DNA of 32,000 nt from assembly GCF_000020025.1 (NCBI RefSeq), contig NC_010628.1:4290001-4322000 (forward strand). The letters are read 5' to 3'. Shown piece after piece: positions 1 to 27,444 of this stretch; the first letter of the stretch is position 1; the number at the start of each line of letters is the position of its first letter. The position numbers were made by a program, and so were the translations under genes. Under the pieces are notes generated by a model that worked only from the letters and a program-made list of their open reading frames with translations, ran no database searches and was not told the origin of the DNA. Source of the stretch: Nostoc punctiforme PCC 73102. GTDB taxonomy: Bacteria > Cyanobacteriota > Cyanobacteriia > Cyanobacteriales > Nostocaceae.

Positions 1-1169
1 GATGGAATACCTATAGCTCTAGGGATAGAACGCCGCGTTCCTTCGCTAGTTGTGACTCCTCGCACCAATATCCCATCATAGATACCGTGATAAGAGCCAG
101 TAAATAAAGCAATCTTGGAGCGTCCTGTAGTAGCGCGTGCTAGGCGTATTGCTCCCATCACGGCTTCTGAACCATCGTTACAAAAAGCTGCCCGTTCTGC
201 GCCTGTTAGTTGACAAATTAACTCCGCAACCTGACCGGCAAGACGCGATTGTGGGCCGTGCAGTATACCTTGGTTTATTTGTTCTTGAATCGCATCAATG
301 ACAAACGAAGGCGAATGACCAAATAAAAGCGCACCAAACCCCATAGAAATGTCTACGTATTCGTTGCCATCAACATCCCAAAGCGTGGCTCCCTCTCCAC
401 GCTGTCCGTGGATGGGATATAACATCTCTTTAATTGAGGGCAGGAACCCTGTTACCGCCCTGCTATTAGCATGGTAAGAACGGTAAGTTTGCGAGAGTCG
501 CTTAGATTCTGAAGTACGCTTAACAAAACGTGCAATTAAATAATCTAAATGTTTTTGTTGATGAGGAGTTAACAGAGTCTTTGATTCTGAGTCAAGCTGT
601 TGGATATTTGCCGGAATTTGAGGCTCAATTATTTGGTTTATGAGTTGTTGATTAAACTTAGCTTGAATCGATGATGGACTTTCTTGAAAACCAGATTTAT
701 CCTGAACAGGAGCAGATGGTATTGCTGCTTGTAAAGGTAATCTTTTCTTAGATGAACCTGCTTTTTGCAAAATATCTAGCTGTTTAGACATTAGCTGAAG
801 CTGCTGTTCTATTACCTGTTCCAGTATTGTACCTGTTACAGATTTTTCATTTTCTTGCTCAAACTCTTGTGTATCTGAAGCCTTAACAGCTAGCCTTGAT
901 TCCTTGATATCTTCTGGAGGTATTTCTTGCACTATGTGCGTTACTAAGGCATGAATTGTTGATAAATCTTCAAGTAATAAACGAAAAGGAATATTAATAC
1001 TTAACTGTTTTTGAATGGCACGGTTTATTTGCAGCAATATCAGAGAGTCAACACCCATTTCTAGAAAACGAGTATGAATATCTATTGCAGATGACTTGAC
1101 TCCCAATGACTCACTAACAATGTCCTTGAGGCTTAATACTAATTTCTGATATTGCAAATCTTTCTTCAT
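1..1169 (-). CDS. PKS-type ACP fused to a class III (GSA-like) PLP aminotransferase domain; partial, C-terminal part lies beyond the left edge
   Basis: Not in the supplied ORF track because it is edge-truncated. My reverse-complement translation from ATG 1169..1167 gives MKKDLQYQKLVLSLKDIVSESLGVKSSAIDIHTRFLEMGVDSLILLQINRAIQKQL, a carrier domain with Ser42 in GVDSL. A long Q/P-rich linker containing QQLQLMSKQLDILQK follows. Then comes WDVDGNEYVDISMGFGALLFGHSPSF..CNDGSEAVMGAIRLARATTGRSKIALFTGSYHG, collinear with the aminotransferase at 27434..28927. The frame stays open to nt 1. Confidence 0.85.
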   Translation of the reverse strand, partial: MKKDLQYQKLVLSLKDIVSESLGVKSSAIDIHTRFLEMGVDSLILLQINRAIQKQLSINIPFRLLLEDLSTIHALVTHIVQEIPPEDIKESRLAVKASDTQEFEQENEKSVTGTILEQVIEQQLQLMSKQLDILQKAGSSKKRLPLQAAIPSAPVQDKSGFQESPSSIQAKFNQQLINQIIEPQIPANIQQLDSESKTLLTPHQQKHLDYLIARFVKRTSESKRLSQTYRSYHANSRAVTGFLPSIKEMLYPIHGQRGEGATLWDVDGNEYVDISMGFGALLFGHSPSFVIDAIQEQINQGILHGPQSRLAGQVAELICQLTGAERAAFCNDGSEAVMGAIRLARATTGRSKIALFTGSYHGIYDGILVRGVTTSEGTRRSIPRAIGIP

Positions 1170-15400: not shown

Positions 15401-17041
15401 GGCTTGGCGTTCCTTGGGATAGATGGGATCGATGGGAACATAAGCTCCACCTGCTTTGAGGATACCTAAGACTCCGATGACCATTTCTAGAGACCTCTCT
15501 ACGCAAATGCCCACTAGCACTTCGGAACCAACTCCCAGTTTTTGTAAGTAGTGAGCTAGCTGATTGGCGCGAGCATTGAGTTCGGCGTAGGTTAGTTGCT
15601 GGGTTTGAAATCTGACAGCGATGTTTTCGGGTGTGCGATCGCTCTGTAACTCAAACCAATGGTGGATGCACTGGTAGGGTAAAATAGTGGTTTGACTATT
15701 GTTAAATTCGGCTAAAAGTTGCTGACGCTCGATAGGACTGATAATGTCGAAAGTAGCGATCGCACCTCCGGGATTTTTAACCACACTGGTTAACAATGTC
15801 TCAAATTGATTCGCCAGACGCTGAATGTCTTCTAAAGCCAAAACATTCGCATCGTAGTGAAATTCAGCAGCTATACTATCATTCCGACTAACACAGGTTA
15901 GTTTGACCTGAAACTTATCAACACAAGTGTACTGTTGATAAATTGAAAAGTAGACATCGCCAGCAAAATGTTTAGCCGAGAGAGATTCAAAATCGAAACA
16001 GAATGGGAAGAATAACTGCTCTAGACTATTACCCGATTCAACACTTTTTTCCCAAGAAAAACTTTCTTGCCATTCAGATATTTCCTTTATAGTTTCTGCA
16101 ACCTGAACCAAGAGATTGTTGAACTTGTAGCTATCTTCGAGATGACACCGAAGAGGTAAATATTTAACAATTAGTCCCAACGATTCTTGTAATTCTTCAT
16201 AGCTGCGACCATCATTAACTGTACCAATAACTATGTCTGATTGTTCGGTGAGCCGCCATAGCAGAATTTGCCAGCAAGTTATAAAAAATACATCTTTATT
16301 AATTTTTTTACCGTGAGTAATGGCATTTATTTTTGCTACTAAATCAGGCGCAATTTCCCTACTAAACCATTTGGGTTCAAATTTTGAGTTCTCAGTTTGC
16401 TGATTTGCAAAAGGAAGCCGCAAGCCACTAAGACTAGAAATATCTAGCTTTCCCCAGTAATCTGTTTCTAATTCCACATCTCCTGCTTTCAGCAATTCAT
16501 TTTGCCATTCAGCAATCTCGGCATATTGTAAAGGTTGCTCAATAACTGTTTCGCCCCGTAAGCAAGCCGCGTAGCATTTGCTCAGTTCACAAACTAAATT
16601 ATTCAGGGTAGGTGAATCCGCACACAAAGCAGGCAAACTGACAAGTAATAAATGCTTTTTTGGTGAGAGAGTAGTGAAGGTTGTTTGCAAAAGTGGCCCT
16701 TTCTCCCAATCGAAACTTTGCTGAATTCCTGATTGAAACAGCTTCTCTATCTCTAATCCTAAAGCCTCTTTGTTTTCCCAAGAATATTCACTTAATGATA
16801 GGAGGGTAGGCTCATTAATTACCTGAATGGGAATTTTTATCCCACGGGTCTGATGAAAAGTCGTCCGGAGAATTTCATACCGATTTACTACTTGGTGTAA
16901 AGCTGCTTTTAAAATCTCCAGTTGCAAATTCCCTTCCAGGAGGATAGCACCATATACTTGATAATATTGACTGTCTTTTTGTAATAACCACAATCGCTTT
17001 TGTTGCGGTGAAAGTTGAAATCCGTGAATTTGTTTTTGCAT
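12446..17041 (-). CDS. NRPS: non-catalytic C-like (interface-like) domain - A (Asn/Asp-type code) - T - E
   Basis: ORF track, 1531 aa. The N-terminal C-like domain has VSLPALCADSP where HHxxxDG is expected. A cores: YTSGSTGKPKG, NEYGPTE, YKTGDL, KIRGFRIELGEIE, SNGKVDR. T: FFDLGGDSILSIQ (Ser1003, the GGDSI form typical upstream of E domains). E: LPLTPIQSWF, HHLVVDGVSWRIL (aa 1186-1198). Confidence 0.95.
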   Translation of the reverse strand: MQKQIHGFQLSPQQKRLWLLQKDSQYYQVYGAILLEGNLQLEILKAALHQVVNRYEILRTTFHQTRGIKIPIQVINEPTLLSLSEYSWENKEALGLEIEKLFQSGIQQSFDWEKGPLLQTTFTTLSPKKHLLLVSLPALCADSPTLNNLVCELSKCYAACLRGETVIEQPLQYAEIAEWQNELLKAGDVELETDYWGKLDISSLSGLRLPFANQQTENSKFEPKWFSREIAPDLVAKINAITHGKKINKDVFFITCWQILLWRLTEQSDIVIGTVNDGRSYEELQESLGLIVKYLPLRCHLEDSYKFNNLLVQVAETIKEISEWQESFSWEKSVESGNSLEQLFFPFCFDFESLSAKHFAGDVYFSIYQQYTCVDKFQVKLTCVSRNDSIAAEFHYDANVLALEDIQRLANQFETLLTSVVKNPGGAIATFDIISPIERQQLLAEFNNSQTTILPYQCIHHWFELQSDRTPENIAVRFQTQQLTYAELNARANQLAHYLQKLGVGSEVLVGICVERSLEMVIGVLGILKAGGAYVPIDPIYPKERQAFILGDTQALVLLTQQSLVAEIPTEGIKVICLDTDWEVIANECPENPVSQTTALNLAYVIYTSGSTGKPKGTLIPHQGLVNYLNWCTQAYAVEQGDGTLVHSSLAFDLTITSLFSPLLVGCRVDLLPEDQGIETLSNSLLHHSNLSLVKITPVHLELLNQQISPKEASGRTRAFIIGGENLLVNSISFWQKAAPDTMLVNEYGPTETVVGCCIYKVPSSEQLSGSVPIGQPIANTKLYVLNPHCQLVPIGMVGELYIGGLGVARGYLNRPELTAEKFVPNPFTNEPGERLYKTGDLVRYRPDGTLEFLGRCDDQVKIRGFRIELGEIESVLSEYSGVQETVVIARQDVPGNQRLVAYIVWNHESPSLSDLRSFLKQKLPEYMMPSALISLKALPLTSNGKVDRRALPAPDTTRPELEATYAAPRTAVEEILAQIWSQVLGVDRVGVYDNFFDLGGDSILSIQAIAKAKQTGIQLTTSQIFDRQTIAELAAVAGNTPTIQAQQEAIVGSLPLTPIQSWFLAQNQPDSHHWNQSIQLEVNQELDPSIVEQALQQLLIHHDALRLRFMQTESGWQQFNASPDEVLSFIRLDLSALSSEKQESAIEEATETVQASLNLSSGPLLKVAFFELGVQKSARMLVVMHHLVVDGVSWRILLDALYTLCQQLSQGEAIKLPLKTTSFQRWSQRLEQYAQSAELKQELPYWLSESRKYISSLPMDNERGDNLMASAETVSVKLSAEETKALLQELPQVYLTQINDLLITAVAQTLAQWNGERISTGDASRSLLIDLEGHGREDIFDDMDLSLTVGWFTTIFPVVLELGEEIYPENTLKSVKEQLRKIPNQGIGYGVLRYMSEDVEIVEQLQALPQAQVIFNYLGQLDRIIPENSEFRLSHLIPGLNRSPRGSMSHLLECIGFVMGGRLQIDWIYSKNIYQRATIEGLAQGCVEVLRALIVRSQSPDAFGYTPSDFPDVELSQEKLEKAFAEIDFS
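12542..13888 (-). other. Epimerization domain (approximate borders)
   Basis: aa ~1052-1500: PLTPIQSWF, HHLVVDGVSW, EGHGRE, FNYLGQ. The C-terminal tail TPSDFPDVELSQEKLEKAFAEIDFS looks like a COM-type donor helix. Confidence 0.85.
14177..15679 (-). other. Adenylation domain, hand-extracted specificity code DLTKIGEVGK (Asn/Asp hybrid)
   Basis: D653 L654 T657 K695 I721 G723 E747 V755 G756 K946, aligned by eye to GrsA-PheA. L236 is typical of Asp codes (DLTKVGHIGK). E322/V330 are typical of Asn codes (DATKVGEVGK). Confidence 0.65.
15737..17029 (-). other. C-like domain lacking the catalytic His motif (interface-like domain), approximate borders
   Basis: aa ~5-435 of ORF 12446..17041. It starts GFQLSPQQKRLW. 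The HHxxxDG position is SLPALCAD (aa 135-142, nt 16616-16639). Confidence 0.7.
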
Positions 17042-17084: not shown

Positions 17085-18131
17085 TTAGACATCTTCAAAG
17101 TTGGCCATTTCGCCCATTGCAACTAAGAGTTGCCTTTCTCCCATATATGAATTCCTACTATGAGCAGTTAATAGATTATCTAGTAGTAATAAATCTCCCC
17201 TTTTCCAAGGAAAGCTAACTTCTAATTGCTGATAGACTCCACAAATTTCTTCCAGTACCGAATCTTCAATAAGAGAGCCATCTCCGTAATAGCAATTTCG
17301 TGGTAAATCCTCTTGTTTAAACATTGATAAAAGGGACTCACGAGTTTGTGAATCTAAACAAGCTGGATGCCAATGTTGCGCTTGATTAAACCAAGACATT
17401 TCCTTAGTTTGAGGATGTTTGACAACTGCTGGACGAACAGCAATTGTCCTCAGTCGATTGCCTGTTTTCCATTCAAAATCAATTGCCGCTTTTGTACATG
17501 CAGCTTCTACTTCTAAGCGATCGCTAGTCTGAAAAACTGTTTCCCAATTCAATCCTAATCTATCCCCGTAGTTTCGGATATACATAACTTTCTTATCAAT
17601 AAATCGCTCTCTAATTTTAGGATCGATTAGCTGAAAAACTATCCGACTATCAACTATTGGTGTTTCTCCTCCCTGCTGTGCAGGCTGAAGACAACCAAAC
17701 AATATTTTTCTTGGCCAAGAATAATTAAATGAATTTTCGTTATGCCACAAGAGCTTTTTATCAGCAGGGTAAGATACTGGAGTATAAACTTTACCACTAA
17801 CACTTTTCCGGGGATGTTCCCCATTCTCATTAAACAAGTCTGAGCAAAGAGCCAAGCAAACTCGCTCAAATGTTGTTGCGGTGTCTACATTGAATCCTCG
17901 GAATAATATCGCACCATATTTTAGTAATTTTGTTTCTATAAAATTTTGGCTGCTCTCAATCCAATCGGCTAAATCAAGATAGTCAATATTAGGTTTTAGG
18001 ACGATCGGAAGTGTTTCCCAATGGGTGAGAAAATCTATCTTGATAAATTCTGTTTCTGACAAGTTAATTGTCTTTCGTCGCACTGTCTCTAATTTTATAG
18101 AGCTAGATTTTTTATTTTCTAATTTTTTCAT
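17085..18131 (-). CDS. Free-standing TauD/TfdA-family Fe(II)/2OG dioxygenase, putative T-domain-dependent Asx beta-hydroxylase
   Basis: ORF track, 348 aa. Motifs: AILFRGF, WHNENS (H130/E132), QQGGETPIVD, TAHSRNSY (H324). Roughly half of positions are identical by eye to the TauD domain at 8367..9317. It sits directly upstream of the Asx NRPS. Confidence 0.9.
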   Translation of the reverse strand: MKKLENKKSSSIKLETVRRKTINLSETEFIKIDFLTHWETLPIVLKPNIDYLDLADWIESSQNFIETKLLKYGAILFRGFNVDTATTFERVCLALCSDLFNENGEHPRKSVSGKVYTPVSYPADKKLLWHNENSFNYSWPRKILFGCLQPAQQGGETPIVDSRIVFQLIDPKIRERFIDKKVMYIRNYGDRLGLNWETVFQTSDRLEVEAACTKAAIDFEWKTGNRLRTIAVRPAVVKHPQTKEMSWFNQAQHWHPACLDSQTRESLLSMFKQEDLPRNCYYGDGSLIEDSVLEEICGVYQQLEVSFPWKRGDLLLLDNLLTAHSRNSYMGERQLLVAMGEMANFEDV

Positions 18132-18154: not shown

Positions 18155-19741
18155 TTATAAATTTTCACTAATGACCTTCCTTTGAACATTTTTTAATTTT
18201 TGGTAAAACACCTCTTTTTGTTTTATTTTATGGAGCATCTGCTGTTGCTTATCTGTTTTCTTTAAAATTTCTTCTAGTTGATTGAGTTCAGCATCCGGTT
18301 GTGTAACAACACTCGCTAAAATTATTTCAAAATGCTTCAGCATCCGGGTAATACTACTAGCATCAAATAGGTCTGTGTCGTACTCCAATAATCCTTTCAA
18401 TCCTTGCTCTGTCTCTCTTAGTTCTAAGTACAAATCAAGTTTGGTTTCCCCTGTTTCTACCTCATCCAAAATATTTACCGTTAAACCCGAAATATCCAAA
18501 GGTGGTAATGGAGCATTCTGGAGAACAAGTTTGACTTGAAACAGTGGCATACGGCTTCGGGTTCGCTCCAGTTTCAGGGCGTTCAGAAGTTTCTCAAACG
18601 GTAAATCCTGATGGGAATAGGCTGACAAAGTACAATCGCGTACTCGTCCAAGCAACTCTCGAAAGGTAGGATTTCCTGAGAGGTTTGTCCGCAATACCAG
18701 TTGATTTACAAAGAACCCGATTAGCCCTTCAACCTCTGGTCGATTGCGGTTGGCGACATCAGTACCTACAACTATGTCGTCTTGGTCTGTGTACCAGTGC
18801 AACAAAGTCTTAAAGGCTGCTAACAGTAGCATAAACAGCGTTATCCCTTCTTGCTGGCTCAGGACTTTTAGCTCTTGGGATAAAGCCTTTGGTAACATTA
18901 GAGTTTGTCTAGCCCCTCGGAAGGCTTGAACTGTAGGTCGAGGGCGGTCGGTAGGCAACTGCAATGTCGGAAGATTATGCAACTGCTGTTTCCAGTAAGC
19001 GACTTGAGTCTCTAATACTTCTCCCGCCAGCCACTGCCTCTGCCAAATAGCAAAGTCTGCGTACTGAATCGGGAGTTCAGGCAGGGTAGAGGGCTTACCA
19101 ATACTGAAAGCCTCGTAAAGCGCTACCAATTCACGAACGAGTACGCCCCATGTCCAACCGTCGGTGATAATGTGGTGCATAGTGATTTGCAGCAAATACT
19201 CTGTCTCACTCAGATGCAGTAAGATGCTCCGCAGCAATGGGCCCTGTTCTAAGTCAAAAAGCTGTTGGACTTCCTGAGTAGTGCGTCGCTGAACCTCTTG
19301 CTCACGCTCAACTTCCGGTAACTTTCTGAGGTCTACTCTCGGCAGAGTTATAGTCAAGGCTGGGGCAATGATTTGAACCGATTCTCCCTCTGCGATCGCA
19401 AAGGTGGTGCGTAGAGCTTCGTGACGGCGTACTATTTCATTTAAGCTCTGCTCCAGCACTGCTAGGTCGAGTGAACCGGTTATGTGTATAGATGCAACTT
19501 GATTATAGGCAGCGCTGTTTGGCTCCAATTGGTAGAGAAACCACATCCGCTGTTGAGCAAAGGATAGAGGTGCCGATCCGCGCTGGGAACGTCGAGGAAT
19601 AAGTTGTAATTGAGTATTAGATTCAAATCCGCATAACCGCTTTTTCAGCAGCGTTTGCTTGACAACGGAAAGCTGAGAACGTCGCCGGGAAATTTCATCT
19701 TTTTTCTGCTCAAAGCTTATACTATCGTTGCGAAAAGTCAT
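18155..19741 (-). CDS. Free-standing NRPS condensation-domain protein with a ~50-aa N-terminal docking-like extension
   Basis: ORF track, 528 aa. Motifs: LSFAQQRMWFLYQLEP, MHHIITDGWTWGVL, ELPIQYADFAIWQRQWL, DVANRNR. No A or T motifs are present. Confidence 0.9.
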   Translation of the reverse strand: MTFRNDSISFEQKKDEISRRRSQLSVVKQTLLKKRLCGFESNTQLQLIPRRSQRGSAPLSFAQQRMWFLYQLEPNSAAYNQVASIHITGSLDLAVLEQSLNEIVRRHEALRTTFAIAEGESVQIIAPALTITLPRVDLRKLPEVEREQEVQRRTTQEVQQLFDLEQGPLLRSILLHLSETEYLLQITMHHIITDGWTWGVLVRELVALYEAFSIGKPSTLPELPIQYADFAIWQRQWLAGEVLETQVAYWKQQLHNLPTLQLPTDRPRPTVQAFRGARQTLMLPKALSQELKVLSQQEGITLFMLLLAAFKTLLHWYTDQDDIVVGTDVANRNRPEVEGLIGFFVNQLVLRTNLSGNPTFRELLGRVRDCTLSAYSHQDLPFEKLLNALKLERTRSRMPLFQVKLVLQNAPLPPLDISGLTVNILDEVETGETKLDLYLELRETEQGLKGLLEYDTDLFDASSITRMLKHFEIILASVVTQPDAELNQLEEILKKTDKQQQMLHKIKQKEVFYQKLKNVQRKVISENL

Positions 19742-19795: not shown

Positions 19796-20866
19796 CTAAT
19801 TCAGAATCTGTAATTTTATATATTTTGGAAAAGGTTGAATCCGCGTTAAATCATTTTCAAAAATTACTAGTTCACCACGCTTTTCAATTTCTTTGAATCC
19901 TGCAAATTTATAAGCTATATACATCATCCGGTTACGATGACTGGAAACAAATTCAGCGCACAGCCGAACGTTATTGTTTTTAGCTAGATTCATAATATGG
20001 TTCAGCATAATTGTGCCGATACCTCTAGACATAACACGACAGGACATCAGCAGAAGTTTTATTGTCCAGATGCTTTCTTGGCACTCTATCAAAACTAACC
20101 CGATTTTACCGTAACTTCCATATTTATCATCTAAACTAGCAATAAACAGTTTGTGGCTTTCTGATTGACGAAAATGATTGAGTTCATCATAAGAATATGT
20201 ATAACCAGTTGTATTCAATTGGTTAGTACGTACTGTTAATTCTTCTGCTCGTTGCAAATCCTCTTCTTTTGCCGAAGAGATGGTAAAACTCATCTTGAGG
20301 GTGGCTAAAAACTCTTCTGGTGTGCCAACAAATTCTTTTTCAGTATTTTGACGCTTTATATCACTAATGTACATTAACCTTCTAATTTTGGAATCTTCTG
20401 TAATAAAACGTGGATTCATTTCTGGCATATCTAGTAGATGCGCCAGTTGAGAGACGTTAATACAGAAAACTTCCGGCAGAGAAAAGTTAACTTCTTCTAG
20501 TTCAAATGGCTGATCGTCAATGAAGGCGATCGCATCTGTTCCAATATTAATTAATTTAGCGATTTCTTGAATAGAAGCAGCTTTGGAATTCCAATTAATT
20601 TGAGGATATAGAAAATATTCTTGCAAACCAAACTCTTGAAGTTTGTTCATGGCAAGAACACAATCGTTTTTACTTGCAACAGATTGTAATATCCCGCGAC
20701 TATCCAAAGTTTTGATGATATTTACGATATCATCTCGCAAGTAAACATGGTTATCCTCTAATAACACACCATGCCATAACGTGTTATCTAAATCCCAAAC
20801 GACACACTTAATAATTTTGTTGTCTTCTTGCTTGTTATTTGAAGATTCAATTTGAGTGCTAATCAT
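19796..20866 (-). CDS. FkbH-like protein (HAD-IIIC phosphatase domain plus C-terminal acyltransferase-like part); glyceryl-ACP loader
   Basis: ORF track, 356 aa. HAD motif I is in KCVVWDLDNTLWHGVL. There is IAFIDDQPFE. The C-terminal part (MSCRVMSRGIGT..) is as in FkbH/ZmaN-type proteins. Confidence 0.85.
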   Translation of the reverse strand: MISTQIESSNNKQEDNKIIKCVVWDLDNTLWHGVLLEDNHVYLRDDIVNIIKTLDSRGILQSVASKNDCVLAMNKLQEFGLQEYFLYPQINWNSKAASIQEIAKLINIGTDAIAFIDDQPFELEEVNFSLPEVFCINVSQLAHLLDMPEMNPRFITEDSKIRRLMYISDIKRQNTEKEFVGTPEEFLATLKMSFTISSAKEEDLQRAEELTVRTNQLNTTGYTYSYDELNHFRQSESHKLFIASLDDKYGSYGKIGLVLIECQESIWTIKLLLMSCRVMSRGIGTIMLNHIMNLAKNNNVRLCAEFVSSHRNRMMYIAYKFAGFKEIEKRGELVIFENDLTRIQPFPKYIKLQILN

Positions 20867-20870
20867 GTGT

Positions 20871-22055
20871 TTACATCCTTGCTGCTAAATTTTGCAGCAT
20901 CACAGCGCCAGTGCGTGGTGATAGGTACTCCTGATAACCGTACTCAGCGATAGTAACTTGTTGAATTTGAGTGCTACCTTCAATGATTTCCATGATTTTT
21001 GCATCTCGCAAATATCTTTCAACTGGGTATTCGCTACTGCAACCATTGCCACCATGAATTTGTACGGCATCACTTGCTACTTGAGAAGCAATTGTAGATG
21101 TAAAATATTTAGCAATTGAAGTCTCGATAATGGAGCTAGGATCGCCAATTTCTTTGAGATAGCCAGCTTGATAACATAGCAATCTTGCTGCTTTGATATT
21201 GGCAATCATGTTAGTAATCATTTGGCGAATTAATTGATGTTCTTTTAAATAAACGCCAAACTGCTTGCGATCGCTTGTATAGCGAATGCAAGCTGATAAA
21301 CAAGCTTGTGCAATGCCTACAGATCCCCATGCTACACTGTATCTGCCATAATCCAGTGCAGAAGATGCCACATAAGAGAAACCAAAACCCAGCCTACCCA
21401 CAAGATTTTCCTGGGGAATACGACAGTCATTTAGGTGCAATTCTGCTAACATCGAAGCCCTGACACCTAGCATTCCAAAAATTGGTTTAATCGAGAGTCC
21501 AGGGCTATTCTTTTCAACTAAGAAAGCAGAGGGTTTTCCTTCACATTGAGCAAATACTAAAAAGACATCTGCAATTTGTCCATAGGTAATCCATTTCTTG
21601 TGTCCATTTAAGATGTAAGCATCCCCAGAAAGTGTTGCCGTAGTTTCCACACTTTTAGCATCACTACCCACATTAGGTTCGCTCAAAGCGAAAGCAGCAA
21701 TTATTTCACCAGAGGCTAATTTGGGAAGCCAATCGTTTTTTTGAGACTTATTGCCCCACTTGCAAAGAGCATGAGAAACCATGCAATGAACTGTCAACAA
21801 ACTCCGCAGCGAAGAACATCCGCGTCCAATTTCTTCGTTCAGCAAGCCATAGGTAATCATATCCATAGCTTCGCCACCAAATTCTTTAGGTAAAACAGCA
21901 CCCAAATATCGTTTTTGAGCGAATTTTTGAACTAGGTCTGAGGGGGTATACTCTTGTTGATCGTATTGATTTGCCTGAGATACAACCTCTGCATCTACAA
22001 ATTCTCTAAATTCAGCCTGAGCATTTTTTTGCTGAGGAGTTAATTCTAGTTTCAT
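20871..22055 (-). CDS. Acyl-CoA (acyl-ACP) dehydrogenase, FkbI/ZmaE-like
   Basis: ORF track 20871..22085 begins at a TTG. ATG 22055..22053 (MKLELTPQQKNAQAEFREF) matches the usual ACAD N-terminus. ACAD blocks: AFALSEPNVGSD, WITYG, QIHGGNG, IIEGSTQIQ. Confidence 0.9.
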   Translation of the reverse strand: MKLELTPQQKNAQAEFREFVDAEVVSQANQYDQQEYTPSDLVQKFAQKRYLGAVLPKEFGGEAMDMITYGLLNEEIGRGCSSLRSLLTVHCMVSHALCKWGNKSQKNDWLPKLASGEIIAAFALSEPNVGSDAKSVETTATLSGDAYILNGHKKWITYGQIADVFLVFAQCEGKPSAFLVEKNSPGLSIKPIFGMLGVRASMLAELHLNDCRIPQENLVGRLGFGFSYVASSALDYGRYSVAWGSVGIAQACLSACIRYTSDRKQFGVYLKEHQLIRQMITNMIANIKAARLLCYQAGYLKEIGDPSSIIETSIAKYFTSTIASQVASDAVQIHGGNGCSSEYPVERYLRDAKIMEIIEGSTQIQQVTIAEYGYQEYLSPRTGAVMLQNLAARM

Positions 22056-22093
22056 CACATCAATGAGGTAGATAAATACCGTCAATTTTTGGT

Positions 22094-22345
22094 TTAGTTG
22101 TAGGTAAGCAAAGCTGTTTTACGTTGTACTAAATTGGTCATAGCATTTATTGTCTTGAAGTTATCAAACTCTAGGTCTTCGTTTTCAATAGTAATTTGAA
22201 ATTCTTGTTCTAAAAATAATACTAGTTGCATAGCAAACATTGAATTAACAAAACCTAGAGTAAATATATCTTCATCTGGCTTCAAGTCATGACCACCAAA
22301 AAATCGGGAAAGGAAGGTTTTAATTCTTGTTGTGGTTTCTTTCAT
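22094..22345 (-). CDS. Discrete acyl carrier protein (FkbJ/ZmaD-like)
   Basis: ORF track, 83 aa. The candidate phosphopantetheine site is Ser35 in TLGFVNSMFAMQLVLFLEQEF. It lies between the dehydrogenase genes of the cassette. Confidence 0.8.
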   Translation of the reverse strand: MKETTTRIKTFLSRFFGGHDLKPDEDIFTLGFVNSMFAMQLVLFLEQEFQITIENEDLEFDNFKTINAMTNLVQRKTALLTYN

Positions 22346-22538
22346 AATTTAACGCTATTTGTGTAATTTTATATTTATCGCAGACCGATATGATTTATCC
22401 AAAATACTTGTTTTAACGAACCATAAATAACAAGAAGGCAATAAAAATAACTGATTTCACAAATGATTGAGGAATGCTATGGTCATCTTCTTATTTATTG
22501 GTATAGCAATCAGATAAAATGAAAAAGAATTTTACAAA

Positions 22539-23405
22539 TTAGTTGGGATTGCTATAGGCATAAAACCCTTTGCCGCTTTTGCGACCATGCAACCCCGCGT
22601 CTACCATTTTCTTAAGCAGTGGACATGGTCTGTATTTACTGTCATTGAAACTTTCATACAAAACTTCGATGGAAAATAAAATCGTATCTAGACCAATCAA
22701 ATCGGCTGTTTCCAACGGCCCCATTTTGTGACCAAAGCAGGTTTTAAAGATTTTATCCACTTCTTCTATCGAAGCAACTTGATCTTGCAGGATAAAAATA
22801 GCTTCGTTAATAGTCAACATCAATACGCGGTTAGAAACAAAACCCGGTGAGTCATTAACTATGATGCATTCTTTGCCCATCTGAGCCAACATTTTTTTTG
22901 CTGTCTCGATTGTTTCATCAGATGTGTGATGCCCGCGAATCATTTCAACCATCGGTTTCATTGGCACGGGGTTCATAAAATGCATACCAACGACTCTTGT
23001 TGCTCGCTTGGTAACAGAAGCAATGCGGGTAATTGAGATAGCTGATGTATTAGCTGCAAATGCTGTCTTCTCTGGACAAATGGCATCAAGCTGTGCGTAG
23101 ACCTCTTTTTTAAGATCCCACTTTTCTGTGACATTCTCAACCACAAATTCTGCATCTTCAAGGAATTTATAGTTAGTTGAAAACTTGATTTTATTTAGTA
23201 TGTCGTCAGGACTCTCTGCTTCACTGTTTTTCTGGAAAAAACCCTGAAAACGGACATTATTTCTAATTTCTTGTTTAGCATGGTTCAGAATATCTTCTGA
23301 AACATCTACTAAAATCACCTGATGACCTGTTTGAGCGAGGTTTTGCGAAACCCCGATTCCCATAACACCTGCTCCGACAACACCAACTGTCTGAATTTCT
23401 CTCAT
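22539..23405 (-). CDS. 3-hydroxyacyl-CoA (acyl-ACP) dehydrogenase, FkbK/ZmaG-like
   Basis: ORF track, 288 aa. The Rossmann motif is VGVVGAGVMGIGV. Other blocks: HFMNPVPMKPMVE, GFVSNR, GRKSGKGFY. Confidence 0.9.
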   Translation of the reverse strand: MREIQTVGVVGAGVMGIGVSQNLAQTGHQVILVDVSEDILNHAKQEIRNNVRFQGFFQKNSEAESPDDILNKIKFSTNYKFLEDAEFVVENVTEKWDLKKEVYAQLDAICPEKTAFAANTSAISITRIASVTKRATRVVGMHFMNPVPMKPMVEMIRGHHTSDETIETAKKMLAQMGKECIIVNDSPGFVSNRVLMLTINEAIFILQDQVASIEEVDKIFKTCFGHKMGPLETADLIGLDTILFSIEVLYESFNDSKYRPCPLLKKMVDAGLHGRKSGKGFYAYSNPN

Positions 23406-23512
23406 TGCTACCTATTTTTATAATTTGATTTTTCATTTTCGTTAGGCGTAAACATAGTACATCGCTGAATATTCATACAAGTTTTCTTTTTTTACTACGA
23501 CGTTAATTTACT

Positions 23513-24171
23513 TTAGCCGCCCTGTTTATCGCCTACTCCTATGACAATCTGCTTGATTTTTTGCCAATCTTCATTCTTGATGCCTTTGATGACATCGGGT
23601 TCGCTTTTATACGCATCAATTTTTAGTAATATGCGTTCGATATTCTGCTCGCCAAGGACATCAGAGAGGGCTCTCAGTTGGCAAGTAAAAGACTGACTTT
23701 TAAATCTTTCTTCTAGCAATTTATCAGAATATTGTATCAGGTTTTCTCTACTCTTGAGATTATTTTGCAATTAATTGAGGACAATTGCTTTTAAGACTGA
23801 CTTTTTTGCTTTTCATCTAGCATAGAATGACAACGTTCCAGAACTATTGGTATAAAACGTTAATGTTGCAACTTTTGACTGGTTAGGCAATCCGCGATTG
23901 AACAGTTTGGCATTCACCCCATAGAGTTTTGTATTCGCGCGTAAATTTCCAACATAGGCAAAGCAGGCTCAAATGCGTAAATTGTGGCATTTTTGCATTG
24001 CTGATTGACAAACAGCGTAAACAAACCAATGTGAGAGCCGACATCAAAAATACAGTTGCCATTGTTGAGAGTAATTCCGTACTTGAGATAGACTTGATTT
24101 TCAAAAATGTCCTTGTAGAAGTAATCATTTTCTGCTTTACCGATATGCACAATCTCTAGATCGTTCGGCAA
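23513..24171 (-). pseudogene. Decayed FkbM-family (Methyltransf_21-type) methyltransferase: one frameshift, two in-frame stops, degenerate C-terminus
   Basis: Piece 1 (24171..23914): FDVGSHIGLFTLFVNQQCKNATIYAFEP.., ending at TGA 23916..23914. Homology continues in the -1 frame from ~23923 (YGVNAKLFNRGLPNQSKVATLTFYTNSSGTLSFYAR) to TGA 23815..23813. After TAA 23773..23771 the same frame reads ..RILLKIDAYKSEPDVIKGI..IKQIVIGVGDKQGG, where the family consensus has LLKIDVEGAE. Confidence 0.7.
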
Positions 24172-24186
24172 TCTGTAGCTTTATCG

Positions 24187-27100
24187 CTAGCTAACTGTTA
24201 TCAATGCTTGTTGGTTTTGAGTAAAAACTGATACAAGCTCCTGAGCTTCGTCTTCAGTTAATTCTTCTAACTCCGCTATAATCATTTCTTCAATAAATAA
24301 ACCCAACTCAGCTACAGAGGGTGCTTCAAAGAGGGCACGAAGGGATAGTTCTAGTTGGAAGTTTTTGCGAAGCTGGGCAATCACCTGAATACCGATCAGG
24401 GAATTTCCTCCCAATTCAAAAAAGTTGTCATATATACCTACTTGTTCTATACCCAACGATTGTTGGTAGAAGCTAGCAATTTTGTGTTCGAGTTCACTGC
24501 TAGGAGCAACATAAGAGTTCCGTAAGTGCGGGCGCGAATGTAGCGAAAGCTCTGATACTATTTCGCTATTCGTTGGCAATTGATATTCCTGTGCTTCGCC
24601 GCCTTGAAAGTGTTCTGGTGAGCATGTCTGCGATATGGCGACAACTTGTGTTTGTTTGTGTGGTTCAATCCAATAACGCTGGCGCTCAAACGGATAGGTC
24701 GGTAAAGGCAAACGATCGCGACGCTCATGAGAATAAAATCCTGCCCAATCTATCTGCACGCCTGCAAGCCAAAGCTGACCTAGTGTATTCAGCAAAAAGG
24801 CAATATCTGACTGACGTTCGTAAGAATGCCGCAGCGATGGCAGCACAACTCGATCTACTAGGCGATCGCTCTGTAAAATACTGAGTGCTAAACTGCTCAA
24901 TGTCTGCCCAGAACCAACTTCTAATAGAACCGGATTATGTTTTTTGGACAATTCTTGCACTGCCGAAGCAAACTGCACAGTTTGGCACAGATGCTTAACC
25001 CAGTAGCTAGGATCTGTTGCTTGCTCTGCTGTAATCCAAGTTCCTGTGACGTTGGACAGATAGGGAATTTTAGGTGGTTGGAGATTGAATGTTTTAACTA
25101 GGCTATGTAAGCCGGGTGCGATCGCCTCCATCATTTTTGAATGAAAAGCATGGGAAGTCACAATCCGCCGACACGCCAAACCCTTTTGGGTTAGGTGGTG
25201 TTCCAATTCATCCACAGCCTCGGTGCAACCCGAAATCACACAAAGAGATGAGCCGTTGATTGCTGAGAGGGAAAGTTTCTCACTAAGGAAAGGCTGCACT
25301 TCTTGTTCTGTTAGGGGAACAGCCAGCATTGCCCCTGCTGGCAACTCTTGAATCATTTGCGCTCTTTTGGCAACAAGAGTCAGAGCGTCTTCTAGGGACA
25401 AAACTCCTGCTAAAGTTGCCGCTACAAATTCACCGATGCTATAGCCAATCATGGCCACAGGACGAATTCCCCACTCGAACCACAACTGAGCCAAAGCGTA
25501 CTCAACGACAAAGATGGCTGGTTGGGTGAAAAAGGTTTGATTTAGTTTTTGGGTGGCTTCATCTGCTGGTTCTTCACTACGACCAAGCATCTTTCGCAAA
25601 TCCAGACCTGGTTTCGATGGGTTCTGTTTTTGGGAACTATTTTTGGGATACAGTACATCCCGCAGATCCAGACCAAGGATAGGTTTTAGCAACAGGCAAC
25701 ATCTGTCCACTGCTTCTTGAAACGTCGGCTCAACTTGGTAAATTTCAAGAGCCATGTTAATGTGATGAGTTCCCAGTCCAGGAAACATCAAAGCGACGGG
25801 GCGATCGCGATCGCGCAGCCCATCCGCAGGACTGGGCGTGTATGCAGCGTATTCGCTTGTCTCTTGAATACTAGTCAAAACTCGTTTTGGATCTTGCAGT
25901 GCATTCATTGCATCATCAATATCCTGACAAACAACCACCCGTCGATAGCCCATAGCCCTGCGCCCCACCTTCAGGGTATAAGCCACATCAGCTAAGTTTA
26001 AATTTGGATGCTGTTTGAGGTGATTAACCAGATTTGCCGTAGCTGTTTCTAATGCTGATTCCGTTTTGGCAGAAATAACCAACAGCTGATATTTCCTCCC
26101 CTGCTCCCCCTGCTCTCCTATCGGGGCTTCCTCCAAAATTATATGTGCATTAGTTCCCCCAATACCAAAGGAACTAACTCCAGCACGGCGGGGGGTGCTA
26201 TTGGTTTTCCATTCAGACAACTTGGTGTTTACATAGAAAGGACTATTGGTGAAATCAATCTCAGGGTTGGGTTCCTCAAAGTGTAAGCTAGGTGGAATCA
26301 ACTTGTGTTTTAGAGCCAGAACCGTCTTAATGAATCCAGCTATACCTGCCGCCGCATCTAGATGTCCGACATTAGTCTTCACCGAACCAATGGCACAGAA
26401 GTTTTTTTTCTGAGTACTTGTACGGAAGGCTTTTGTTAAAGCCTTGATTTCCACAGGATCTCCTAGAACTGTACCGCTACCATGACACTCTACATAGTTG
26501 ACTGTCTCAGCCTCAATATCTGCTACAGCCAGAGCTTGTGCGATCGCCTGGGCTTGCCTAACTAGGCTAGGTGCTGTGTAACCAACTTTTAAAGCTCCAT
26601 CATTATTGATGGCGGAACCAATGATTACAGCATGAATGCAATCGCGCTCGCTGAGAGCATCTTCCAAGCGCTTGAGAACTACTACTCCAACTCCGCTGCC
26701 ACCCACAGTTCCCCTAGCTTTGGCATCAAAGGTACGACAGTGCCCATCGGGAGACATGATTCCCACTTCTTGATGTAAATAACCAGCTTTTTGTAAGACA
26801 TTTATGCTCACACCACCAGCTAGAGCCATATCACATTGGTAACTGAGCAAGCTTTGGCAAGCCAAATAGATTGAAACTAATGATGTGGAGCAACCAGTTT
26901 GAACATTAATACTTGGGCCTTTTAAATTTAATTTATAGGAGGTGCGTGTAGTTAGGAAATCTTTTTCATTACCCAGCAGCGTTTGTTGACCAATTTCTAA
27001 GCTGAGTAAGTTGCGGTTGGAAGCAATGTTAAACAACAAATAGCTGTTCCAGCCCATACCCCCATAAATGCCAATTTCGCCTGCAAAGTTTTCAGAATCG

Positions 27101-27444
27101 TAGCCAGCATCTTCCAGAGCCTGCCAGGAACACTCCAAGAAAAAGCGGTGTTGGGGGTCCATAATTGCTGCTTCTCTGGGGTTAAAACCAAAGAATGCAG
27201 CGTCAAATAATTCTATATCTTCTAATACTGCCCCAGCTTTTACATGGCGAGGATTATTCAGTATAGCTGGGTCAATTGCTGAATTTAATATATCTTCATC
27301 CGTTAAGACAGAAATTGACTCCACACCATCTTTGAGATTTCGCCAAAAATCATTAATACTTTTGGCTCCAGGAAAACGGCCAGCCATACCAATCACAGCT
27401 ATCCCTTCCATATTCTCGTTCTTGAAAGTATCATTAACGGACAT
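24187..27444 (-). CDS. Type I PKS module KS-AT-T (no KR/DH/ER) with an NRPS-style carrier domain
   Basis: ORF track, 1085 aa. KS: TGCSTSLVSIYLA (Cys185), ECHGSGT, KTNVGH. AT: FPGLGTHHINM, GYSIGE (Ser669), TSHAFHS. T: YVAPSSELEHKIASFYQQSLGIEQVGIYDNFFELGGNSLIGIQ (Ser1015). Confidence 0.95.
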   Translation of the reverse strand: MSVNDTFKNENMEGIAVIGMAGRFPGAKSINDFWRNLKDGVESISVLTDEDILNSAIDPAILNNPRHVKAGAVLEDIELFDAAFFGFNPREAAIMDPQHRFFLECSWQALEDAGYDSENFAGEIGIYGGMGWNSYLLFNIASNRNLLSLEIGQQTLLGNEKDFLTTRTSYKLNLKGPSINVQTGCSTSLVSIYLACQSLLSYQCDMALAGGVSINVLQKAGYLHQEVGIMSPDGHCRTFDAKARGTVGGSGVGVVVLKRLEDALSERDCIHAVIIGSAINNDGALKVGYTAPSLVRQAQAIAQALAVADIEAETVNYVECHGSGTVLGDPVEIKALTKAFRTSTQKKNFCAIGSVKTNVGHLDAAAGIAGFIKTVLALKHKLIPPSLHFEEPNPEIDFTNSPFYVNTKLSEWKTNSTPRRAGVSSFGIGGTNAHIILEEAPIGEQGEQGRKYQLLVISAKTESALETATANLVNHLKQHPNLNLADVAYTLKVGRRAMGYRRVVVCQDIDDAMNALQDPKRVLTSIQETSEYAAYTPSPADGLRDRDRPVALMFPGLGTHHINMALEIYQVEPTFQEAVDRCCLLLKPILGLDLRDVLYPKNSSQKQNPSKPGLDLRKMLGRSEEPADEATQKLNQTFFTQPAIFVVEYALAQLWFEWGIRPVAMIGYSIGEFVAATLAGVLSLEDALTLVAKRAQMIQELPAGAMLAVPLTEQEVQPFLSEKLSLSAINGSSLCVISGCTEAVDELEHHLTQKGLACRRIVTSHAFHSKMMEAIAPGLHSLVKTFNLQPPKIPYLSNVTGTWITAEQATDPSYWVKHLCQTVQFASAVQELSKKHNPVLLEVGSGQTLSSLALSILQSDRLVDRVVLPSLRHSYERQSDIAFLLNTLGQLWLAGVQIDWAGFYSHERRDRLPLPTYPFERQRYWIEPHKQTQVVAISQTCSPEHFQGGEAQEYQLPTNSEIVSELSLHSRPHLRNSYVAPSSELEHKIASFYQQSLGIEQVGIYDNFFELGGNSLIGIQVIAQLRKNFQLELSLRALFEAPSVAELGLFIEEMIIAELEELTEDEAQELVSVFTQNQQALITVS
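24295..24498 (-). other. Carrier domain of PKS 24187..27444, PCP-like rather than PKS-ACP-like
   Basis: The DNFFELGGNSL core and the preceding YVAP..E..IA.....LG...VGI block are the NRPS T-domain pattern. The ACP in ORF 1..1169 instead uses LEMGVDSL. Confidence 0.7.
24835..25797 (-). other. Acyltransferase domain with non-canonical motifs (GYSIGE, FPGLGTHH) but an HAFH specificity motif
   Basis: aa ~550-870. GYSIGE is encoded at 25429..25446 and HAFH at aa 765-768. There is a ~25-aa insertion, NSSQKQNPSKPGLDLRKMLGRSEEPADEA, relative to the AT of ORF 1414..4320. Confidence 0.75.
25801..25814. repeat. Two overlapping HIP1 octamers (GCGATCGCGATCGC); one of at least 20 HIP1 sites in the window
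   Basis: Exact GCGATCGC begins at 3524, 4690, 6036, 6271, 6739, 10531, 13060, 14010, 15635, 15756, 17517, 19392, 20526, 21267, 24862, 25118, 25801, 25807, 26540 and 31394. Positions were found by eye. Confidence 0.8.

What the first reader, a model, noticed from the sequence alone, without database searches (positions are those of the whole stretch)
19796..23405. FkbH / acyl-CoA dehydrogenase / ACP / 3-hydroxyacyl-CoA dehydrogenase cassette with no intact O-methyltransferase and no obvious consumer
These four adjacent genes match the enzyme set that makes hydroxymalonyl-ACP in zwittermicin (ZmaN, ZmaE, ZmaD, ZmaG). The same set plus an O-methyltransferase makes methoxymalonyl-ACP in the FK520 pathway (FkbH, I, J, K plus FkbG). 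No FkbG-type OMT is present, and the only adjacent methyltransferase is a pseudogene, so hydroxymalonyl-ACP or glyceryl-ACP is the expected output.

Both cis-AT domains in the window carry the malonyl-type HAFH motif. It is therefore unclear which module uses the unit. Possible recipients are:
- the unusual AT of PKS 24187..27444 (GYSIGE);
- the ACP of ORF 1..1169;
- the A-less T domain at 10800..11027.

The cassette also sits between a PKS and the NRPS genes, directly upstream of a free-standing C domain.
Basis: partly seen in the sequence, partly recalled or inferred. Interest (0 to 1): 0.65.

Follow-up and report, generated by a model that had tools for sequence, protein, structure and literature searches.

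The report
Hydroxymalonyl-ACP cassette feeding adjacent Nostoc PKS
This is an intact four-gene set that makes the rare polyketide building block hydroxymalonyl-ACP in a Nostoc lipopeptide gene cluster; the likely user is the polyketide synthase next door, so it is a new cyanobacterial example of a known system, not a puzzle.

Summary
Window 19796-23405 (minus strand) encodes 3-hydroxyacyl-CoA dehydrogenase, an 83-aa ACP, acyl-CoA dehydrogenase and FkbH. FkbH scores 291 bits on TIGR01686 (cutoff 146.65). The four proteins are 46-57% identical to ZmaG, ZmaD, ZmaE and ZmaN, and the residues expected to be catalytic are present.

The "no obvious consumer" part is not supported. The AT of the adjacent PKS (24187-27444) has GYSIG. 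This is the same His-to-Tyr change as in ZmaA-AT (hydroxymalonyl-ACP) and ZmaF (aminomalonyl-ACP). In 72 related cyanobacterial loci, the AT just upstream of the cassette is GYS in 63 of 65 scorable cases, and these ATs form their own clade. In the reverse search, close GYS ATs had the cassette downstream wherever the contig reached.

The methyltransferase "pseudogene" (23436-24186) is the decayed C-terminal FkbM-type domain of that PKS. It is intact in Scytonema and Rhizonema relatives.

The free C domain belongs to a repeated split module: C, TauD hydroxylase, then a His-less C-like domain with A and T. Cyanochelin siderophore clusters use the same layout.

Verdict: a new member of a known kind. 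No product or biochemistry exists for it, and both ATs keep the malonyl-type HAFH motif, which counts against the assignment.

The parts
19796..20866 (-). FkbH-type glyceryl transferase/phosphatase (ZmaN homologue, 356 aa)
   Evidence: TIGR01686 at 291 bits vs cutoff 146.65. 57% identical to ZmaN. D25, D27, T29, K95, D117, D118 and C276 (in the MSCRV motif) are invariant with ZmaN and cyanobacterial homologues.
20871..22055 (-). Acyl-CoA dehydrogenase family enzyme (ZmaE homologue). Inferred to do the second oxidation, to hydroxymalonyl-ACP. 394 aa from the ATG at 22055; the ORF extends to a TTG at 22085.
   Evidence: PF02771/PF02770/PF00441. 47% identical to ZmaE, 43% to ZmaI. Profile alignments begin at residue 11, and gene callers give 394 aa.
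22094..22345 (-). Free-standing 83-aa ACP (ZmaD homologue) that carries the glyceryl then hydroxymalonyl unit. The phosphopantetheine serine is S35 in GFVNSM.
   Evidence: PF00550. 46% identical to ZmaD, 44% to ZmaH. Serine position.
22539..23405 (-). 3-hydroxyacyl-CoA dehydrogenase family enzyme (ZmaG homologue). Inferred to do the first oxidation of glyceryl-ACP.
   Evidence: PF02737 and PF00725. 53% identical to ZmaG over 280 aa.
23436..24186 (-). Relic of the C-terminal FkbM-type methyltransferase domain of the upstream PKS (pseudogenised)
   Evidence: tblastn with the intact Scytonema domain (L013) gives 69-77% identity spread over three reading frames, with five in-frame stops beyond the PKS stop codon. 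The intact domain hits PF05050 and TIGR01444. It is intact as KS-AT-ACP-MT or KS-AT-KR-ACP-MT in L011, L013, L014, L015, L018, L019, L025, L037, L039 and L060.
24187..27444 (-). PKS module KS-AT-carrier (1085 aa), proposed consumer of hydroxymalonyl-ACP. AT is roughly nt 24820-25788; carrier domain nt 24301-24462.
   Evidence: Domain hits. KS motifs read as TGCSTS, ECHGSGT and VGHLD in the translation. Synteny with the cassette.
25429..25446 (-). GYSIGE active-site motif of the PKS AT (Tyr668 replaces the usual His)
   Evidence: Sequence confirmed. The same H-to-Y change occurs in ZmaA-AT and ZmaF. GYS in 63 of 65 cassette-adjacent ATs.
27434..28927 (-). Free-standing class III aminotransferase, overlapping the PKS start by 11 nt. 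Inferred beta-keto transaminase for the PKS product.
   Evidence: PF00202. 54% identical over 186 aa to the in-cis aminotransferase domain that follows the ACP of ORF 1..1169.
18155..19741 (-). Free-standing canonical C domain (HHIITDGW). Inferred to take the chain from the PKS carrier to the next NRPS module.
   Evidence: PF00668 at 390 bits. Motif. A C domain follows FkbH in most related loci.
17085..18131 (-). TauD-type hydroxylase of the split module C | TauD | I-A-T-E
   Evidence: PF02668. Same layout as in cyanochelin C.
12446..17041 (-). NRPS: His-less C-like (interface-like) domain, A, T and E
   Evidence: The first C-like domain has SLPALCAD in place of HHxxxDG; the last has the E-type motif HHLVVDGVSW. 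The A domain reads FDLTIT...NEYGPTETVVG.

Best explanation
The four genes form a complete hydroxymalonyl-ACP supply operon inside a Nostoc FAAL-primed NRPS/PKS lipopeptide cluster.

Proposed steps, all inferred by homology to OzmB and ZmaN/G/E/D:
1. FkbH takes 1,3-bisphosphoglycerate, dephosphorylates it through its HAD aspartates, and passes glycerate via a cysteine thioester to S35 of the 83-aa ACP.
2. The 3-hydroxyacyl-CoA dehydrogenase homologue oxidises C3 to the aldehyde.
3. The acyl-CoA dehydrogenase homologue oxidises it further to the carboxylate, giving hydroxymalonyl-ACP.

The consumer is the AT of the PKS immediately upstream (24187-27444, KS-AT-carrier). This AT carries GYSIG. It would move the unit onto the PKS's own carrier for a KS-catalysed extension, giving a 2-hydroxy-3-keto unit.

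The aminotransferase gene that overlaps the PKS start probably converts the 3-keto group to an amine. The free C domain downstream then passes the chain to the next NRPS module.

Ancestrally the PKS ended in an FkbM-type methyltransferase domain, which presumably O-methylated the new hydroxyl. In this Nostoc lineage that domain has decayed, so the hydroxyl should stay free unless another methyltransferase acts on it.
For: Cassette identity and integrity:
- Family scores are; identities of 46-57% to ZmaN/G/E/D are.
- FkbH keeps D25, D27, T29, K95, D117, D118 and C276, all invariant with ZmaN.
- The mechanism comes from the reviews read.

Consumer:
- PKS1 AT has GYSIG. PMC4207774 Table 2 lists GYSFG for ZmaA-AT and GYSLG for ZmaF, against GHSxG for all CoA-using ATs.
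- In 72 related loci the AT directly upstream of the cassette is GYS in 63, GHS in 2 and not scorable in 7. Other ATs in the same loci are GHS in 24 cases and GYS in 12.
- GYS ATs form a clade separate from cyanobacterial GHS ATs.
- The first RXR position is A, V or I in 72 of 75 GYS ATs and D or E in 19 of 26 GHS ATs. This fits the hydrophobic-patch idea of PMC4207774.
- Reverse test: a metagenome scan seeded with the AT found 16 LACR-type (LACR/LVCR/VACR) GYS ATs at 59% identity or more, and the cassette lies downstream in each.

Other points:
- MT domain history.
- Aminotransferase: 54% identical to the in-cis PKS aminotransferase domain.
- Operon-like spacing, with gaps of 4-193 nt, one strand and no intergenic terminator-like site.
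Against: - No product, labelling or enzyme assay exists for this cluster or any relative I could find.
- The GYS clade keeps the malonyl-type HAFH motif in every member. ZmaA has GAAH and ZmaF has GPFH.
- ZmaA-AT does not group with the cyanobacterial GYS clade, so the Tyr is a convergent marker, not shared ancestry.
- The best PDB hit is ZmaA-AT for the GYS AT and also for the GHS AT of the second PKS, so overall similarity does not discriminate.
- Distant GYSLG ATs in soil contigs have no cassette within the DNA held, and one contig (L130) has the cassette next to GHS ATs.
- The target of the lost MT domain and the substrate of the aminotransferase are inferred from position only.
Confidence: 0.75

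Rival explanations
1. The cassette stops at, or is tapped at, glyceryl-ACP. Glycerate would then be used directly by an NRPS condensation domain, as in the FkbH-loaded glyceric acid units of dysinosin, aeruginosin and cyanopeptolin pathways. The candidates are the free C domain downstream or the A-less C-T module at 8364-12434.
For: - A C domain follows FkbH in most related loci.
- NRPS 8364-12434 has a T domain with no A domain to load it.
- FkbH domains that load glycerate for C domains exist in cyanobacteria.
Against: - Both oxidising enzymes are intact and conserved with FkbH and the ACP in about 70 loci. They would be pointless for a glycerate unit.
- The glycerate-loading systems use FkbH fused to its own carrier and have no dehydrogenases.
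- The free C domain is explained by the repeated C | TauD | I-A-T layout.
- The A-less module is kept only in the nearest relatives, so it is not co-conserved with the cassette.
Confidence: 0.1
2. The hydroxymalonyl unit is still methylated to give a methoxy group. One of the two intact class I SAM methyltransferases in the window (29044-29790 or 7587-8363) would replace the lost FkbM-type domain, so the effective extender or product is methoxymalonyl-type.
For: - Two intact methyltransferases with PF13649/PF08241 hits lie in the same operon direction.
- Their best NCBIfam hits include BioC, a malonyl-ACP O-methyltransferase, though far below cutoff at 44 and 54 bits against 185.
Against: - Neither is FkbG-type (PF01596) or FkbM-type.
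- Neither is conserved next to the cassette in other loci.
- The one at 7587-8363 sits between NRPS genes, where N- or O-methylation of an amino acid is equally likely.
Confidence: 0.1
3. The GYS AT is an ordinary malonyl-CoA AT. The cassette would then be a leftover, or would serve a consumer outside the window such as a discrete AT.
For: - HAFH is the classical malonyl signature and is invariant in the clade.
- In Nostoc flagelliforme the cassette is followed by two discrete acyltransferase-domain proteins.
- The adjacent MT domain shows that decay is happening in this locus.
Against: - All four cassette genes are intact, with catalytic residues kept, while the neighbouring MT domain has collected stops and frameshifts. 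This argues for continuing selection on the cassette.
- The tight two-way association between GYS ATs and the cassette would be unexplained.
- No discrete AT lies in the window or in the flanking contigs L090 and L094.
Confidence: 0.05

Closest known systems
Zwittermicin A hydroxymalonyl-ACP pathway (ZmaN, ZmaD, ZmaG, ZmaE with ZmaA-AT), Bacillus cereus/thuringiensis
   Same: - The same four enzyme families, at 46-57% identity.
- No FkbG-type O-methyltransferase.
- The consuming AT carries GYSxG in place of GHSxG.
- The setting is a hybrid NRPS/PKS with aminotransferase chemistry.
   Different: - Here the genes are contiguous in the order dehydrogenase-ACP-ACAD-FkbH. In the zma cluster ZmaN lies about 14 kb from ZmaD/E/G.
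- There is no parallel aminomalonyl branch (no ZmaH/I/J/F equivalents).
- The AT keeps HAFH instead of GAAH and is not a phylogenetic sister of ZmaA-AT.
- The host is a cyanobacterium.
Methoxymalonyl-ACP loci (FkbGHIJK of FK520; OzmBDEFG; Mad11-15)
   Same: FkbH, ACP, 3-hydroxyacyl-CoA dehydrogenase and acyl-CoA dehydrogenase steps starting from 1,3-bisphosphoglycerate.
   Different: - No FkbG/OzmF-type O-methyltransferase.
- In relatives, methylation capacity sits in an FkbM-family domain fused to the C-terminus of the consuming PKS. Here that domain is a pseudogene.
Cyanochelin-type cyanobacterial lipopeptide siderophore clusters (cyanochelin B and C)
   Same: - FAAL start.
- Repeated beta-hydroxy-Asp-type modules built as C, then TauD, then an interface-like domain with A and T, either split over ORFs or with C-TauD at an NRPS C-terminus.
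   Different: - The cyanochelin papers I could read mention neither FkbH nor hydroxymalonyl.
- This cluster adds the cassette, two aminotransferase-linked PKS modules and a glycosyltransferase.
- No transporter genes lie within the DNA I hold for this cluster.
FkbH-domain glycerate loading in cyanobacterial aeruginosin/dysinosin-type NRPSs
   Same: An FkbH-family enzyme in a cyanobacterial NRPS context.
   Different: In those systems FkbH is a domain of the NRPS with its own carrier and no dehydrogenases, and it yields a glyceric acid starter. Here it is a free-standing enzyme with a free ACP and both oxidases.

Membership tests
Hydroxymalonyl-ACP biosynthesis cassette (ZmaN/D/G/E type) | FkbH-family glyceryl transferase/phosphatase with HAD aspartates and a conserved cysteine | tested here: met
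   TIGR01686 at 291 bits vs cutoff 146.65. D25, D27, T29, K95, D117, D118 and C276 are invariant with ZmaN. Which cysteine carries the thioester is my inference; the intermediate itself is described in PMC9057759.
Hydroxymalonyl-ACP biosynthesis cassette (ZmaN/D/G/E type) | Dedicated free-standing ACP with a phosphopantetheinylation serine | tested here: met
   PF00550. 46% identical to ZmaD. S35 lies in GFVNSM.
Hydroxymalonyl-ACP biosynthesis cassette (ZmaN/D/G/E type) | 3-hydroxyacyl-CoA dehydrogenase homologue and acyl-CoA dehydrogenase homologue adjacent to FkbH and the ACP | tested here: met
   53% identical to ZmaG and 47% to ZmaE. The four-gene order is conserved in about 70 loci.
Hydroxymalonyl-ACP biosynthesis cassette (ZmaN/D/G/E type) | No FkbG-type O-methyltransferase (this separates hydroxymalonyl from methoxymalonyl loci) | tested here: met
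   No PF01596 hit in any ORF of the window. The only neighbouring MT is an FkbM-type relic. Two unrelated class I MTs elsewhere in the window cannot be excluded as late methylases.
Hydroxymalonyl-ACP biosynthesis cassette (ZmaN/D/G/E type) | Demonstrated formation of hydroxymalonyl-S-ACP from 1,3-bisphosphoglycerate | not testable with these tools
   Needs in vitro reconstitution with intact-protein MS.
ACP-linked-extender acyltransferases (ZmaA-AT / ZmaF type) | GYSxG in place of GHSxG at the active-site serine | tested here: met
   GYSIGE at nt 25429-25446, compared with Table 2 of PMC4207774.
ACP-linked-extender acyltransferases (ZmaA-AT / ZmaF type) | Hydrophobic instead of basic residues in the RXR stretch before the YASH motif | tested here: inconclusive
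   PKS1 reads (L)ACR: the first position is Ala but the third is Arg. The malonyl-type AT in the window reads (V)DCR, so neither has the basic first residue.
ACP-linked-extender acyltransferases (ZmaA-AT / ZmaF type) | Non-malonyl YASH-position motif (GAAH in ZmaA, GPFH in ZmaF) | tested here: not met
   PKS1 and all cyanobacterial GYS ATs have HAFH.
ACP-linked-extender acyltransferases (ZmaA-AT / ZmaF type) | Common ancestry with ZmaA-AT | tested here: not met
   In the neighbour-joining tree ZmaA-AT falls outside both cyanobacterial clades. PKS1 AT is 44% identical to ZmaA-AT and also 44% to the malonyl AT of ZmaK.
Cyanochelin-like beta-hydroxy-Asp lipopeptide siderophore clusters | FAAL start plus C / TauD / interface-A-T modules | tested here: met
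   L090 upstream contig: FAAL-ACP-C | TauD | C-like-A-T. His-less SLPxLCAD domains. Layout compared with cyanochelin C.
Cyanochelin-like beta-hydroxy-Asp lipopeptide siderophore clusters | Linked TonB-dependent receptor or siderophore transporter genes, or iron-regulated production | not tested
   The cluster borders lie outside the window and outside contigs L090 and L094. A related cassette-bearing cluster on a Gloeocapsopsis plasmid does have an embedded TonB-dependent siderophore receptor.

The most novel reading that the evidence does not exclude
Filamentous and other cyanobacteria carry a widespread, so far undescribed "supermodule". It consists of a PKS with a GYS-type AT, an optional C-terminal FkbM-type O-methyltransferase domain, and a four-gene hydroxymalonyl-ACP cassette. 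It would install 2-hydroxy or 2-methoxy units in siderophore-like lipopeptides.

Two further points follow:
- O-methylation would occur on the assembly line by a PKS domain, not on the free ACP by an FkbG-type enzyme.
- The lichen-associated Nostoc lineage of this window would be a natural methoxy-to-hydroxy switch caused by decay of that domain.

The His-to-Tyr change would then be a convergent, predictive marker of ACP-linked extender use.
Probability: 0.45. Interest if true: 0.5.

Novelty: new member of a known kind. Interest (0 to 1): 0.38.

Why it matters
- **Rarity.** Hydroxymalonyl-ACP is a rare extender unit. A 2017 paper limits it to Bacillus, Xenorhabdus, Paenibacillus and Streptomyces. 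My full-text searches found no cyanobacterial case.
- **Spread.** FkbH homologues at 70-95% identity occur in at least 80 cyanobacterial genome loci, and about 70 of these carry the other cassette genes. They are almost always paired with a GYS-type AT.
- **Predictive use.** This gives genome miners a simple sequence rule for placing a 2-hydroxy unit in predicted products. HAFH alone mis-predicts malonyl here.
- **Engineering lead.** The decayed PKS-fused FkbM domain suggests a natural pair of hydroxy and methoxy congeners in closely related strains.
- **Limit.** None of this changes the basic biochemistry, which is already known.

Tried and rejected
1. **PDB similarity as an AT specificity test.** ZmaA-AT (4QBU) is the best hit for the GYS AT at E=8e-75. 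The control with the GHS AT of the second PKS hits it even better, at E=7e-80. I rejected this as evidence.
2. **AT phylogeny with ZmaA, ZmaK and ZmaF.** ZmaA does not cluster with the GYS clade, so I dropped any claim of shared ancestry.
3. **The RXR motif rule.** It is only partly informative, because the malonyl-type cyanobacterial ATs also lack a basic first residue.
4. **Paenilamicin as the source cluster.** This was my first guess from the G+C content. I dropped it when the genome scan showed Nostoc.
5. **Literature.** Searches for a described cyanobacterial cassette found only FkbH-domain glycerate loaders and a "hydroxymalonyl-CoA" label in the aetokthonostatin scheme; the biosynthesis section I read lists no FkbH cassette genes. 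The cyanochelin A paper and the interface-domain paper were not held.
6. **Promoter and terminator scan of 17000-25000.** No excess and no intergenic terminator-like site. This is uninformative on co-expression.
7. **Cluster borders.** I could not reach them. Logan contigs extend only to a FAAL gene upstream and one more NRPS downstream.

Full report
**1. What is in the sequence**

All sizeable ORFs of the window lie on the minus strand. In order of transcription they are:

| Coordinates | Product |
|---|---|
| 30943-31896 | glycosyltransferase |
| 30005-30898 | TauD-type hydroxylase |
| 29044-29790 | class I methyltransferase |
| 27434-28927 | class III aminotransferase |
| 24187-27444 | PKS, KS-AT-carrier |
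| 23406-24186 | 781-nt gap with broken ORFs |
| 22539-23405 | 3-hydroxyacyl-CoA dehydrogenase |
| 22094-22345 | ACP |
| 20871-22085 | acyl-CoA dehydrogenase |
| 19796-20866 | FkbH |
| 18155-19741 | free C domain |
| 17085-18131 | TauD-type hydroxylase |
| 12446-17041 | NRPS |
| 8364-12434 | NRPS, C-T-C-TauD |
| 7587-8363 | methyltransferase |
| 4354-7581 | NRPS |
| 1414-4320 | PKS, KS-AT |
| 1-1169 | ACP-aminotransferase fragment |

- The FkbH assignment is strong: TIGR01686 at 291 bits against a curated cutoff of 146.65.
- Gaps inside the cassette are 193, 38, 4 and 54 nt.
- No intergenic terminator-like site was found.

**2. Origin**

- Contigs 100% identical to this stretch occur in many public sequencing runs.
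- The closest genomes are Nostoc MAGs at 94-95% FkbH identity, whose isolate names suggest lichen metagenome sources. Rhizonema and Scytonema follow at 87-88%.
- FkbH homologues at 70-79% identity occur in about 70 further Nostocales and Oscillatoriales genomes.
- They also occur on plasmids of Gloeocapsopsis, Nostoc and Chroococcidiopsis.

**3. Comparison with the reference pathway**

I fetched the zwittermicin cluster from B. thuringiensis plasmid pIS56-233. One gene there is annotated zmaJ, and I assigned the other Zma names from gene order and product annotation. Identities to the window proteins are:

| Window protein | Zma homologue | Identity |
|---|---|---|
| FkbH | ZmaN | 57% |
| dehydrogenase | ZmaG | 53% |
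| ACAD | ZmaE | 47% (ZmaI 43%) |
| ACP | ZmaD | 46% |

- FkbH keeps the HAD residues D25, D27, T29, K95, D117 and D118.
- It also keeps C276 in an MSCRV motif. All of these are invariant with ZmaN and four cyanobacterial homologues.
- The phosphoglyceryl-S-enzyme mechanism and the two oxidation steps are as described for OzmB/G/D and Mad11-14.

**4. The methyltransferase "pseudogene"**

- In Scytonema (L013) and Rhizonema (L011) the homologous PKS is 1340-1341 aa and ends in an FkbM-family domain (PF05050, TIGR01444).
- In L014, L015, L018, L019, L025 and L039 the PKS is KS-AT-KR-ACP-MT at about 1845 aa.
- Aligning the intact domain to the window gives 69-77% identity spread over three reading frames.
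- There are two stops right after the carrier domain (VS*R*SY) and four more further on.
- Sister Nostoc MAGs are broken in different ways (L008, L009).
- The relic is therefore a decayed domain of the PKS itself, lost fairly recently in this lineage.

**5. Who uses the unit**

- PMC4207774 tabulates GYSFG for the hydroxymalonyl-ACP AT of ZmaA and GYSLG for the aminomalonyl-ACP AT ZmaF. All CoA-using ATs in that table have GHSxG.
- The AT of PKS 24187-27444 has GYSIG. The second PKS (1414-4320) has GHSIG.
- Across 72 related loci the AT directly upstream of the cassette is GYS in 63, GHS in 2 and not scorable in 7.
- Other ATs in the same loci are GHS in 24 cases and GYS in 12. Some of the GYS ones are a second such module about 9 kb downstream.
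- In a neighbour-joining tree, GYS ATs form a clade apart from cyanobacterial GHS ATs.
- As a reverse test, I seeded a metagenome scan with the AT itself. Sixteen LACR-type (LACR/LVCR/VACR) GYS ATs at 59% identity or more all had the cassette downstream.
- Several GYS ATs without a cassette in their own locus come from contigs that also hold a cassette-bearing locus.

Against this assignment:
- HAFH is invariant in the GYS clade.
- ZmaA-AT is not its sister in the tree.
- PDB similarity does not discriminate between the two window ATs.
- More distant GYSLG ATs have no cassette within the DNA held, and one contig pairs the cassette with GHS ATs.

On balance, the adjacent PKS is by far the best-supported consumer.

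**6. Surroundings**

- The aminotransferase overlapping the PKS start is 54% identical to the aminotransferase domain fused after the ACP of the second PKS. This suggests it transaminates the 3-keto group of a carrier-bound intermediate.
- The free C domain has a canonical HHIITDGW motif.
- The first C-like domains of NRPS 12446-17041 and NRPS 4354-7581 have SLPxLCAD in place of HHxxxDG.
- Together with the upstream contig (FAAL-ACP-C | TauD | C-like-A-T | glycosyltransferase), the cluster contains three copies of the layout C, TauD, His-less domain-A-T.
- Cyanochelin C uses this layout for beta-hydroxy-Asp.
- The A domains read FDLTIT...NEYGPTETVVG. From my memory of Stachelhaus codes this looks Asx-like; I did not test it formally.
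- A related cassette-bearing cluster on a Gloeocapsopsis plasmid has a TonB-dependent siderophore receptor embedded in it.
- A siderophore-like glycolipopeptide is therefore a reasonable guess for the product, but I did not test it.

**7. Novelty**

- The chemistry is known.
- A 2017 paper limits hydroxymalonyl-ACP use to Bacillus, Xenorhabdus, Paenibacillus and Streptomyces.
- My full-text searches found no cyanobacterial description, though subscription papers are not covered.
- I rate this a new member of a known kind. Two modestly interesting extras are the PKS-fused FkbM domain with its decay here, and the GYS marker that overrides the HAFH prediction.

**8. Verdict**

- Observation: confirmed.
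- Interpretation: partly supported. The output is right, but the "no consumer" claim is not.
- Confidence that PKS 24187-27444 consumes hydroxymalonyl-ACP: about 0.75.
- Interest: 0.38.

Noticed in passing
window 18155-19741, 17085-18131, 12446-17041; 8364-12434, 4354-7581; L090 486-8674: There are three copies of a split module: canonical C, TauD-type hydroxylase, then a C-like domain lacking both histidines (SLPALCAD, SLPSLCAD, GLPAVYAD) followed by A-T. This matches the beta-hydroxy-Asp module layout reported for cyanochelin C. The cluster starts with FAAL-ACP-C on the upstream contig.
   Followed up: partly
window 8364-12434: This NRPS reads C-T-C-TauD with no adenylation domain for its T domain (about nt 10800-11027). 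No free-standing A domain lies in the window or the flanking contigs, so what loads this carrier is unexplained. The A-less form is kept in Rhizonema, Scytonema and one Aerosakkonema locus (L011, L013, L060).
   Followed up: partly
L016, L018, L019, L022, L023, L039-L041 at about 16-19.8 kb; L099-L103, L107, L109, L112, L134: Many related clusters hold a second GYS-type AT module with a distinct RXR stretch (L/I-V/I-G-K). It lies about 9 kb or more downstream of the cassette, which suggests two hydroxymalonyl extensions per product.
   Followed up: partly
L117-L121, L126, L128, L133 (soil metagenome contigs): More distant GYSLG ATs (49-57% identity) occur two or three in series, with no cassette in the 10-20 kb held. 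These may be polyol-forming lines with a remote cassette, or GYS ATs unrelated to hydroxymalonyl.
   Followed up: no
L130 1057-4500 and 6438-14423: This contig has the four cassette genes (53-66% identity) followed by GHS-type ATs that have hydrophobic RXR residues (VAIS, VAAS). It is a counter-example to a strict GYS rule.
   Followed up: no
L139 (Gloeocapsopsis dulcis plasmid) 24733-28433; L138 (Nostoc flagelliforme plasmid) 21361-24613: On the Gloeocapsopsis plasmid, a TonB-dependent siderophore receptor and an iron-siderophore binding protein sit inside the cassette-bearing NRPS/PKS cluster. On the N. flagelliforme plasmid, the cassette is followed by two discrete acyltransferase-domain proteins, and an MbtH gene and an MFS transporter precede it.
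   Followed up: no
window 24301-24462: The carrier domain of the hydroxymalonyl-type PKS has an NRPS-style FFELGGNSL motif, and its best NCBIfam matches are to NRPS T domains, not to PKS ACPs.
   Followed up: no
window 1414-4320 and 1-1169; L094 9157-14430: The second PKS is split. KS-AT is one gene, and the ACP is fused to an aminotransferase domain and a C-A-T module (1757 aa) in the next gene, after a 244-nt gap.
   Followed up: no
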